This document shows, piece after piece, positions 3,104 through 10,433 of a stretch of 64,000 nucleotides of DNA. The stretch lies in contig OX597821.1 in the NCBI GenBank assembly GCA_951406725.2, forward strand, positions 112,654,001-112,718,000, read 5' to 3'. The notes below the pieces were generated by a model. That model made no database searches, was not told where the DNA came from, and saw only the letters and a list, made by a program, of their open reading frames with translations. The translations under genes and the position numbers were made by a program. How positions within the stretch are numbered: the stretch's first letter is position 1; every line of letters begins with the position of its first letter. Source of the stretch: Octopus vulgaris (taxonomy: Eukaryota).

Positions 3104-3365
3104 GTATGTAAGATGAATTAAAATACAGTTTTATATTTAAAAAAAAAATGGAGACCACCTCCTTCTGTGGGGTGAAGTTAAAATAACAGACAGAGAACAC
3201 CACTTGAAAATACGAAAACTAAAAGAAGCAGCACATATGCTAGGATACAACAACCTCCTAAGCAGAACGAGTACAGATATGAGCAGCATATGGGAACCGG
3301 TATTAAGGAAGGATAGGAGAATATTAGATTTATAAGCCCTAAAATTCACTCCATAATTGCCCACA

Positions 3366-3438
3366 GGCATATGACGTGGTGGTAAAGAGCGCAGGCTACT
3401 AACCCCAAGATTCCGAGTTCTATTCCAGGCAGTGACCT
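3366..3438 (+). promoter_or_regulatory. tRNA-like segment with Pol III A and B boxes
   Basis: TGACGTGGTGG (A-box-like), anticodon-like loop CT-ACT-AA, GAGTTCTATTCC (B-box-like). The acceptor stem is imperfect, so this is not called a tRNA gene. Confidence 0.6.
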
Positions 3439-3496
3439 GAATAATAGCATCGAAAAATACCTTAGGAATGAGAACCCAGGTTCGAAATTTCCCCAA

Positions 3497-3542
3497 GACA
3501 CCTGAAGAAGGCTGGAGGGTATATCAGCCGAAACGTTGTGTT
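3497..3542 (+). ncRNA. Minimal type-I hammerhead ribozyme
   Basis: GACAC-CTGAAGA-A-GGCTG[10 nt]CAGCC-GAAAC-GTT-GTGTT: stems I and II pair, the core is intact, and stem III is the palindrome AACGTT. Confidence 0.85.
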
Positions 3543-4247
3543 AACAACAAACAAATGAGGACAAATATTCCTCAAATGTAAATAATGTAGATGAATTAAA
3601 ATGTTATGGTAAGTGTTTGCTCAACGAAAGTTATTAATTTTCGTTTCCTTACTTAGTTTTTCCCACCTACGCATTTTATCAGTGGCGACATTTTTCCAGA
3701 AGCTCTGAAACTGAGAGGCACTCGAGGGATGGGTGAAATCTTGTTTCGAGATCACTATCTTCGGTATGTTTTATCAGATATGTATGTATGTATATGCATA
3801 TGAATATATTAATGTCTAATAAATATTTAATTGATAATATATATTAAGTGTGTATGTAAAATATATGATATATCTATATACGCGTATACATGCGTATCTG
3901 TATGTGTGTATGTATGTAAAATCTGATAAAATGTACCCAAGATAGCAATCTCGCTTCATGTTTGCAGTTTGTTTCAGTCAGTAATACGGCAAGCAAAGAA
4001 TACTTGGCACCAAATATTTTAAAAGACCTCGAACGCAAGATTGATCACGTGGGCAAGAACGAGAAGAACTGGTGTGATACGACCACGCTGACATCTAACG
4101 AGGGGTGGGAAAAAAGTGGTAGTATTATTTATCCACGATTCTACGTGTTTCATTTGCTAATAGAAGTTACAAAATCGACCGTGTACGTATCTCTTATTAG
4201 AAATTCTTCGGACAGAGAATCTCGGGGACCCAGCTTCGATTATAACC

Positions 4248-8109: not shown

Positions 8110-8182
<73 letters not shown>

Positions 8183-8189
<7 letters not shown>

Positions 8190-8968
8190 CAATAAAAGGC
8201 TTCCTAATATAGAAGTGCTGTGCTAGAAACACAAAAAGGGGATAAATTCATGAAAGGAATGAAAATTAAAACCGTTTACCATCTCAGCTAATCCTAGACC
8301 GACGGTTTCATCTATTTTTAGCAAACAAACAGAATTTATCTGCCAAGGCAAGAATCATCAGTAGGGAGCCTTCGTAATCCTAGATGTACAGACCGTTAGA
8401 AGCACATGAAAATCTAACGATTTGTATACCCTAACTTTTCAAACCAGTGCGCAGTCGCAAATCATACCCGGCGACAGAGAGGATGCCGGTAAAAAATTTA
8501 CGAGCAAATTTATCAGGCAATATTTAAACATAGTAAATAGGGTAATAGTAAATAGGCTTTGGTCGGCCCAAGGCTACAGTGGAAGAAACTTGCCCAAGGT
8601 GCCACCCATGAGGACTGAACCTGGAACCAGGAGGCTGGGAAGCAAGCGTCTCACCACACGCCCATGACTTCTCACCATTAGGATTACGAAGGCTCCCTAC
8701 CGATGATTCTTGCATTGGCAGATAAATTCTGTTTGTTTGCTAAAAATAGATGAAACCGTCGGTCTAGGATTAGCTGAGATGGTAAACGGTTTTAATTTTC
8801 ATTCCTTTCATGAATTTATCCCTTTTTGTGTGTCTAACACAGCACTTCTCTATTTGGAAGCCTTTTATTGTATTTCTATATGAATAATATATAGTCTAAT
8901 GACTAATTCGTCTTTTGTGCTGGGTCACTGGTAATAATAATTTATTTTTTATTACTCTATTTACTATG

Positions 8969-8972
<4 letters not shown>
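8183..8972. mobile_element. Fold-back insertion with ~200-bp inverted arms, each carrying a hammerhead motif
   Basis: Arms at 8183-8382 and 8679-8877. Flanked by (TA)n(GA)n and (TA)n. Confidence 0.8.
8293..8365 (-). ncRNA. Type-I hammerhead candidate with an enlarged stem-II region
   Basis: CCTA-CTGATGA-[44 nt]-GAAACC-GTC-GGTC-TAGG. The plus-strand copy at 8696-8768 has CCGATGA (U4C). Confidence 0.65.
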
Positions 8973-9063
<91 letters not shown>

Positions 9064-9077
9064 CATACATACATACA

Positions 9078-9125
<48 letters not shown>

Positions 9126-9297: not shown

Positions 9298-9651
9298 ACG
9301 ACAGGTTTCTTTCAGTTTCCATCTACTAAATCCACTCACAAGGCTTTGGTCGGCCTGAGGCTATAGTAGAAGACACTTGCCTAAAATGCCATGCAGTGGG
9401 ACTGAATCCGAAGCGATGTGTTTGGAAAGCAAGCTTCTTACCACACAACCACGCTCGACTGGTACTTAATCTCTCGACCCCGAAATATATGACGGGCTTC
9501 TTTCAGTTTCACTCTACCAAATCCATTCACAAGGCTTTGGTCGGTCCGAGGCTACAGTGGAAGAAACTTGCCCAAGGTGCCACGCAGTAGGACTGAACCT
9601 GGAACCAGGAGGCTGGGAAGCAAGCGTCTTACCACCCGCCCATGACTTCTC
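9298..9651 (-). mobile_element. Two family M SINE 5' halves
   Basis: Match to the family M head. Confidence 0.8.
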
Positions 9652-10433
9652 CTCACTATTAATTAAATTAGTTTCTCTGAAATATTTGTAATCGGCAGAA
9701 ATACTAAAATAACGTTTACTAATTAAAAGAGGGTAATTAGGCGTTTTCGAAATAACTTAAAGAATTTAGGTTGATAGCATCTGTTATTTACTAACAGAAT
9801 TTCTAAAATTTTAAATACTAACATCGCCCAACCACTCCCAGCAAAATGGGAGAAGCAAAAAAAAAAGGCGTTGGAATCCCAGTAATTTTTTGTGTTCCAA
9901 CCCTTTTATTTTTTTGCAAATGTTTTTTTAATATCTTCTCCATTTCTAATATCGCTAAGAATCTAATGTCAAGAATATCTGGATGGAATTCCAGGTTTTC
10001 TGTCAATCAGTGTATGATACATCAATGTTGGTTGTCTTATATGGAAACTTGATAGATAGATAGATAGATAGATATGTTTCTTTATTAGCCACACAGGGCT
10101 GCACACAGACGGAAGATAGATAGATAGAAAGGAAGTAAGAGATAGAGAAAAGGGAGATATACAGAGGAAGAAGGAAGGACGAAAAAGTCGAAGAAGAGCG
10201 AGTGATTAATTGATCAAGTAAAGAATCAGTCAAGTACTGGATCGGTCTAATCCAATATGTCCATCCTTCACCAAACTTGAAACCTGGTGCCAATGTTGAA
10301 TCAGTATTCTATAGGCGCAGGCGTGGTCGAGTGGTAAGATGTTTCCTTCTCAACTGTCTTTCTCGATTGCCTCGGGCTGACCAAAGATGTGTGAGTGGTT
10401 TTGGTAGAGTAACTAAAAGAAGTCTGTCTTAAA

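What the first reader, a model, noticed from the sequence alone, without database searches (positions are those of the whole stretch)
8183..8972. Fold-back hammerhead element with terminal redundancy suggesting a tandem or circular template
Seen: the minus-strand copy begins with TATTACCCTATTTACTATGTTT (8547-8526), and the plus-strand copy ends with TATTACTCTATTTACTATGTTT (8950-8971). Joining the two gives a ~430-440-bp unit whose end runs into its own start. The stem-II region is replaced by two small hairpins. Inference: the element was reverse-transcribed from a circular or multimeric RNA and integrated in inverted form, as is known for PLEs.
Basis: partly seen in the sequence, partly recalled or inferred. 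Interest (0 to 1): 0.72.

Follow-up and report, generated by a model that had tools for sequence, protein, structure and literature searches.

The report
Back-to-back hammerhead retrozyme insertion
This is one copy of a dispersed 437-base non-coding repeat that carries a predicted self-cutting RNA motif and sits in a TA microsatellite as two back-to-back arms with two fixed, different ends, likely pasted in by a Penelope-type jumping-gene enzyme; it is a likely new member of a known class (retrozymes), and whether its RNA is a circle is untested.

Summary
The 22-nt match is real (21/22; best of 500 shuffles 19), and the two arms do join into a 437-bp unit that occurs in direct tandem elsewhere in the genome. 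The match is not a terminal repeat: the minus arm is 5'-truncated 22 nt into the preceding unit's tail. Stem II is one long covarying hairpin, not two small ones. Among 100 arms in 61 loci, 90 end at one of two fixed sites about 95 nt apart, mostly at microsatellites; 25 of 34 head-to-head pairs combine one of each end, none has two tails. This is the Penelope 'tail' signature. 66 arms read through the hammerhead cut site and 26 exceed one unit, so the template was circular or uncleaved multimeric RNA; I could not separate these. The 124-nt spacer is a local copy of DNA 560 bp downstream. No ORF; autonomous Penelope-like elements exist in the genome, but the partner was not identified. Self-cleavage and circular RNA are untested. 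Verdict: a non-LTR retrozyme / non-autonomous Penelope-type element in an octopus-like genome. The scan noted such families before, in this genome and others.

The parts
8121..8182 (.). Left target flank, (TA)n(GA)n microsatellite
   Evidence: sequence
8183..8547 (-). Arm 1: last 22 nt of tail, 143-nt middle, 200-nt core; 3' end at the tail-less end (unit position 437)
8286..8370 (-). Type I hammerhead motif, intact core (starts 8361); predicted cut between 8297 and 8296
   Evidence: cleavage untested
8526..8547 (-). The 22-nt match: end of the tail of the preceding unit, at the 5' truncation point of arm 1
8545..8556 (+). Junction 1: 12-nt direct repeat of 8530-8541, its last 3 nt shared with the start of the spacer donor
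8554..8680 (+). Spacer: local templated copy (94%) of 9532-9661, 3' part of a SINE-like repeat plus its unique flank; 2-nt overlap with arm 2
8679..8971 (+). Arm 2: 199-nt core plus 94-nt tail; 3' end at the tailed end (unit position 94)
8691..8775 (+). Hammerhead motif with core change U4 to C; predicted cut between 8764 and 8765
8878..8971 (+). Tail: the 94 nt between the two fixed 3' ends of the family
8975..9121 (.). Right target flank, (TA)n microsatellite
   Evidence: sequence
9532..9661 (+). Donor of the spacer

Best explanation
The locus is a single two-armed insertion of a 437-bp non-coding repeat with a predicted type I hammerhead ribozyme, likely copied in trans by a Penelope-like RT/GIY-YIG enzyme that likely primed reverse transcription from both cut strands of a TA microsatellite. 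Shown: unit, tandem copies, covarying hammerhead fold, two fixed 3' ends, head-to-head geometry, common source of both arms, local origin of the spacer. Inferred: the enzyme nicks both strands; one DNA end starts cDNA at the tail end of the RNA, the other about 95 nt upstream (both sites are followed by AUAU-like RNA that could pair with a TA primer); each cDNA runs through the hammerhead site and the unit junction and stops at a random point; the two free ends are joined by microhomology-type repair, here after copying about 125 nt of neighbouring DNA. For the template I favour, at about 55:45, a circular monomer made by dimer-dependent hammerhead cleavage and ligation over an uncleaved linear transcript of a roughly two-unit locus.
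For: Dispersed family: 54 matches from 40 scored of 2018 candidates, 481 exact tail 25-mers. No frame over 55 codons and no Penelope protein match. Hammerhead: 46 of 53 parsed copies intact, 8 of 61 not parsed; 93.5% of cells paired against 88.5% shuffled (0/500) and 25-49% slid, 8 pairs with two-sided changes; short self-complementary stem III that pairs as a dimer (-12.7 against -0.3 kcal/mol), as described for Penelope and retrozyme hammerheads (PMC4209133). 90 of 100 arms end at two sites, 81 of those 90 next to a microsatellite; 25 of 34 head-to-head pairs have one end of each kind, 0 have two tails; a Penelope enzyme extends both strands from two internal RNA sites that define the tail (PMC11167929). 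66 of 100 arms contain the cut site internally, 26 exceed one unit. Variants private to one locus are shared by both inverted arms at 8 in 3863 sites and by direct repeats at 3 in 2467, against 0.09-0.12 per 1000 for matched pairs from different loci; the window arms share one. No three-unit array among 16 exact dimers. Autonomous RT+GIY-YIG elements with intact frames, hammerheads and (TA)n ends are in the genome; two such families share the unusual U.U pair at the base of stem II. In L027 an arm is joined head-to-head to the 3' part of an autonomous element.
Against: No autonomous element sharing the tail or hammerhead was found in 60 Penelope loci, so the partner is assumed. No cleavage or RNA data. 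The longest arm (822 nt) would fit inside a linear two-unit master; differences between upstream and downstream copies recur in the same direction 12 times and in the opposite direction 6 times, a lean towards fixed linear masters; only 3 shared private variants support regeneration from a monomer, and local gene conversion could give the same. PMC11167929 found hammerhead cleavage dispensable and priming without target homology. The sister family has 2 two-tail pairs among 14. Rfam finds no hammerhead, stem II lacks the G10.1-C11.1 pair, and the covariation rests on about three subfamilies. Loci are top hits of three queries, not a random sample.
Confidence: 0.8

Rival explanations
1. Same enzyme and geometry, but the template is a linear, uncleaved transcript of a roughly two-unit master locus; the hammerhead is carried along or acts at another step, and no circle is needed.
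For: All arms (at most 822 nt) fit a two-unit master; no trimers; 12 against 6 same-direction differences; unprocessed RNA is the main substrate in vitro (PMC11167929); 8 of 9 frog retrozyme dimers did not cleave in vitro (bioRxiv 10.64898/2026.07.22.740005).
Against: 3 private variants shared by direct repeats within an arm against about 0.3 expected; compensatory changes show the fold is kept in three subfamilies; linear masters can only shorten; three arms start within 4 nt of the cut site (320, 322, 324), a weak hint of cleaved RNA.
Confidence: 0.4
2. The copies are only truncated pseudo-LTRs of an autonomous Penelope-like family whose ORF-bearing members I did not sample.
For: Tail rule, inversion and hammerhead are all pseudo-LTR features; searches score only the best 40 candidates.
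Against: The core is preceded by the same 143-nt middle part and then by the tail of the previous unit in every long arm; no ORF and only one Penelope fragment in useful contact among 111 sequences, on the other strand.
Confidence: 0.07
3. The fold-back arose after insertion, by DNA-level inversion or by two independent insertions into one microsatellite, or is an assembly artefact.
For: The spacer is a DNA-templated local copy; microsatellites are insertion hot spots; no contig of other samples was seen to bridge the junctions.
Against: 34 head-to-head pairs in 31 of 61 loci, 23 of 34 with -3 to +6 nt between arms and a fixed end rule; arms share private variants yet differ by 3.5%, unlike a chimeric read.
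Confidence: 0.05

Closest known systems
Metazoan non-LTR retrozymes (Cervera and de la Pena 2020, PMC7229834, passages read; Li, Clavereau and Pollet, bioRxiv 10.64898/2026.07.22.740005, parts 1-3 of 5 read, supplements not seen)
   Same: Non-coding unit of 150-450 bp, low GC, one type I hammerhead per unit, tandem copies, short self-complementary stem III, co-occurrence with Penelope-like elements.
   Different: Dispersed arms of under two units, mostly back-to-back, no long arrays found; long stem II closed by U.U; RNA, cleavage and circles not shown.
EN+ Penelope-like elements (Craig et al. 2021, PMC8557442, passages; Cervera and de la Pena 2014, PMC4209133, passages; Frangieh et al. 2024, PMC11167929, parts 1-2 of 4)
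   Same: 5' truncation, partial tandems, inverted 5' arm, tail at one end only, (TA)n bias, no visible target duplication, hammerhead upstream of the 3' end, two internal start sites.
   Different: No ORF; tail about 95 nt, not 30-40; one-tail-per-pair rule counted here in genomic copies; both start sites have TA-like microhomology, whereas the anole enzyme primed without homology.
LINE-1 twin priming and polymerase-theta-type templated insertions (recalled, no call)
   Same: Head-to-head join of two cDNAs with short microhomologies and a locally templated filler.
   Different: Both priming sites are fixed and the two arms overlap in sequence.

Membership tests
non-LTR retrozyme | Type I hammerhead with conserved core in each unit | tested here: met
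   46 of 53 parsed copies intact; covariation; not matched by Rfam
non-LTR retrozyme | Short (150-450 bp) non-coding, low-GC unit | tested here: met
   437 bp, longest open frame 55 codons
non-LTR retrozyme | Tandem organisation with at least two consecutive hammerheads | tested here: met
   Met for the family in 3 of 61 loci (L059, L069, L079); not for the window copy; no trimer among 16 exact dimers
non-LTR retrozyme | No LTR, primer-binding site or polypurine tract | tested here: inconclusive
   Architecture shows no LTR pair; no dedicated search for the two motifs
non-LTR retrozyme | Self-cleavage in vitro | not testable with these tools
   needs a transcription assay
non-LTR retrozyme | Expressed as linear and circular monomer RNA | tested here: inconclusive
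   Only assembled contigs of runs guessed to be RNA were available
autonomous Penelope-like element | ORF with RT and GIY-YIG domains | tested here: not met
Penelope-type insertion | Partial tandem, inverted 5' arm, tail at one end | tested here: met
Penelope-type insertion | Microsatellite / AT-rich target | tested here: met
   81 of 90 fixed ends abut a microsatellite
Penelope-type insertion | Sequence shared with the pseudo-LTR of an autonomous partner | tested here: inconclusive
   none in 60 sampled Penelope loci out of thousands of candidates
canonical / Penelope minimal hammerhead | G10.1-C11.1 closing pair of stem II | tested here: not met
   U.U in the window subfamily, A-U plus an extra A in another; U.U also in two autonomous families

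The most novel reading that the evidence does not exclude
These insertions are genomic records of a Penelope enzyme dimer in which each subunit starts at a different fixed RNA site on opposite target strands and rolls round a small RNA circle; the enzyme can load two different RNAs (the retrozyme arm fused head-to-head to an autonomous Penelope arm in L027), and host end-joining copies neighbouring DNA into the joint. A superfamily of at least three such circles shares one tail motif, which would be the cis signal for the enzyme.
Probability: 0.3. Interest if true: 0.6.

Novelty: new member of a known kind. Interest (0 to 1): 0.36.

Why it matters
The element class is known, and I found no paper on it in octopus (searches; subscription papers and supplements are not covered). 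Its value is as a test bed: hundreds of short, ORF-free copies show the two-start-site, two-strand behaviour reported in vitro for one Penelope enzyme, and they make the open question of whether Penelope-type elements copy a circle or an uncleaved multimer testable by counting shared variants in dimers and by one RNase R experiment. The shared tail may define the minimal signal for mobilisation in trans.

Tried and rejected
Rfam: no family at gathering score in the window; only microsatellite-driven chance hits at E up to 10. Free folding of the hammerhead region did not give the active fold (z -1.4 to -1.9), expected for a 1-nt loop III. RNA: no RNA holder listed; contigs of four runs guessed to be RNA cover the unit wholly (X1) or partly, with a 'goes back 437' joint in X1 and X3 that genomic tandems give too. 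Laying three runs on 8400-8800 listed no contig across either junction (24 of 1733 pieces shown). Search for the autonomous partner: profiles of the unit over 40 GIY-YIG loci and 20 loci of the L027 family found no shared pseudo-LTR. Position-specific variant test inconclusive. A spike of 5' ends at the cut site is not established (3 of 100 arms within 4 nt, biased sample). The apparent cluster of 5' ends at unit position 1 was set aside as a product of the query and of short undetected upstream pieces. Stem III was left out of the pair count because the alignment misregisters it between subfamilies; it was read by pattern instead. A look-up of earlier findings by sequence gave nothing. A tRNA A-box-like stretch after the cut site was noticed but not tested.

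Full report
Setting. The window is G000:C8:112654001-112718000, in a 2.8-Gb assembly of 227 contigs. Genome size, about 30 chromosome-scale contigs and the SINE-like repeats suggest an octopus; this is recalled, not from a call.

Observation. The 22-nt match is present at the stated places with one mismatch and extends to 29 nt; 500 shuffles reach at most 19 of 22. The inverted arms are 200 nt and 96.5% alike. I split the element into tail T (94 nt, 8878-8971), middle U (143 nt, 8525-8383 on the minus strand) and core C (about 200 nt, in both arms). The minus arm reads end-of-T, U, C; the plus arm reads C, T. Locus L024 holds T-U-C in one piece, 437 bp, and served as ruler. So the 22 nt are where the minus arm is truncated inside the previous unit's tail. 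The stem II claim is wrong: the region folds as one long hairpin.

Family. A search with the plus arm gave 54 matches from 40 scored of 2018 candidates; a tail 25-mer has 481 exact hits. From three searches (90 loci, 29 dropped as duplicates) I kept 61 loci with 100 arms of 40 nt or more; they are top hits, not a random sample. 3' ends: 54 at the T end, 36 at the C end, 10 elsewhere; 81 of the 90 fixed ends abut a microsatellite. 64 arms cross the unit junction, 26 are longer than one unit, 66 contain the predicted cut site and 3 contain two hammerheads; the longest is 822 nt. There are 34 head-to-head pairs in 31 loci (three loci count twice): 25 join a C end with a T end, 1 has two C ends, none has two T ends, 8 involve another end. 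Genome-wide, 16 exact T-to-T dimers were found and none adjoins another; a trimer with a changed motif would be missed. The unit has no frame over 55 codons and no match to three Penelope proteins.

Hammerhead. Rfam does not find it. By pattern, 53 of 61 copies parse as type I and 46 are intact. Stem I switches between four compensated versions, position 7 and the cut-site letter vary, and stem III is a short self-complementary stretch that pairs far better between two molecules than within one. On 36 of the 61 copies, 24 pairs (stem III left out) are 93.5% paired, against 88.5% shuffled and 25-49% slid; 8 pairs change on both sides (5 of 500 shuffles reach that). These changes come from about three subfamilies, so they are few independent events. 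The base of stem II is U.U, not G-C; the same is seen in two autonomous Penelope families here. The window's minus-arm motif is intact, the plus-arm motif has U4 changed to C.

One event, one source. The window arms differ at 6 letters and one gap, and share a variant seen in no other locus. Over all inverted pairs such shared private variants occur 8 times in 3863 sites, and in direct repeats within an arm 3 times in 2467, against 0.09-0.12 per 1000 sites for matched cross-locus pairs. This supports one template lineage per insertion. For direct repeats the number is small and gene conversion is not excluded; the opposite test, variants fixed to the first or second unit, gave 12 same-direction against 6 opposite recurrences among 98 differences, which is inconclusive and leans the other way.

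The spacer. 8554-8680 is 94% identical to 9532-9661, including unique flank beyond the SINE-like repeat, and a 29-mer of it occurs exactly twice in the genome, at 8623 and 9601. The joints show a 12-nt duplication, a 3-nt and a 2-nt overlap. 23 of 34 pairs have -3 to +6 nt between arms; the two other long spacers are further pieces of the element. I read this as repair with a locally templated filler (mechanism recalled).

Enzyme. The genome holds many GIY-YIG elements (148 matches from 150 scored of 6136 candidates), among them intact 781-residue RT plus GIY-YIG frames that end in (TA)n behind a hammerhead variant. None of 60 sampled loci shares our tail or core. In L027 an arm joins, without microsatellite between, the 5'-truncated and decayed 3' part of an autonomous family on the other strand, whose own 3' end lies at (TA)n. 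It may be a two-template insertion or two events; it is one case.

Relatives. A motif seen led to a sister family (208 exact hits) with a 478-bp unit, its own hammerhead, a similar tail and the same targets; 10 of its 14 inverted partner arms end at the C end, 2 at the T end, 2 elsewhere. A third family with a similar tail lies in L034.

Literature. Penelope-like insertions are 5'-truncated partial tandems with an inverted 5' copy, a 30-40-bp tail at one end and microsatellite bias (PMC8557442, passages). An anole Penelope protein cuts and extends both strands, starts at two internal RNA sites that bound the tail, is predicted to be a dimer, and does not need hammerhead cleavage (PMC11167929, parts 1-2 of 4). 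Circular templates for more-than-unit copies were proposed in PMC4209133, which also notes hammerhead pairs on opposite strands 100-700 bp apart (passages). Animal retrozymes are 150-450-bp tandem units expressed as linear and circular RNA (PMC7229834, passages) and are proposed to be non-autonomous Penelope derivatives (bioRxiv 10.64898/2026.07.22.740005, parts 1-3 of 5; supplements not seen). Searches listed no paper on octopus retrozymes; I saw those lists only. Earlier notes of this scan, read after the analysis, describe like families of 310-600 bp in this and other genomes, some with the same two-end rule.

Verdict. A real, dispersed, non-coding hammerhead element with Penelope-type insertion anatomy: a new member of the non-LTR retrozymes (confidence 0.8 for the overall mechanism, about 0.55 for a circular template). 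Interest 0.36.

Noticed in passing
window 8554-8680 and 9532-9661: The spacer between the arms is a copy of DNA 560-690 bp beyond the insertion, unique in the genome; a templated insertion at a retrotransposon joint.
   Followed up: yes
L027:1496-3160: Retrozyme arm joined head-to-head to a decayed autonomous Penelope 3' arm, both pointing out into (TA)n; a possible two-template insertion.
   Followed up: partly
L113-L132 (L123:1459-1936 oriented): Sister family with a 478-bp unit, U3 core variant, similar tail, inverted arms and TA targets; 208 exact motif hits.
   Followed up: partly
L034, minus strand 2290-2840 (oriented): Third family of about 470 bp with its own hammerhead and a related tail.
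   Followed up: no
L152:1245-3587 and L037, L042, L049: High-copy Penelope-like family with many intact 781-residue frames and a hammerhead variant with U3 and A8 about 110 nt before its (TA)n end; 3' UTR has tandem repeats with CCAAT-like and CRE-like words (labels recalled).
   Followed up: partly
L135:821-1586 and 3218-3983: Penelope copy with a 766-bp perfectly identical inverted arm: a very young insertion.
   Followed up: no
window 8765-8790 and homologues: The stretch after the cut site resembles a tRNA 5' end with an A box (recalled); no B box seen by eye.
   Followed up: no
L007, L010, L016: Subfamily with a 17-nt duplication in the 3' side of stem II.
   Followed up: no
window, about 17 places: Many copies of a SINE-like repeat at 72-84% identity to the spacer.
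   Followed up: no
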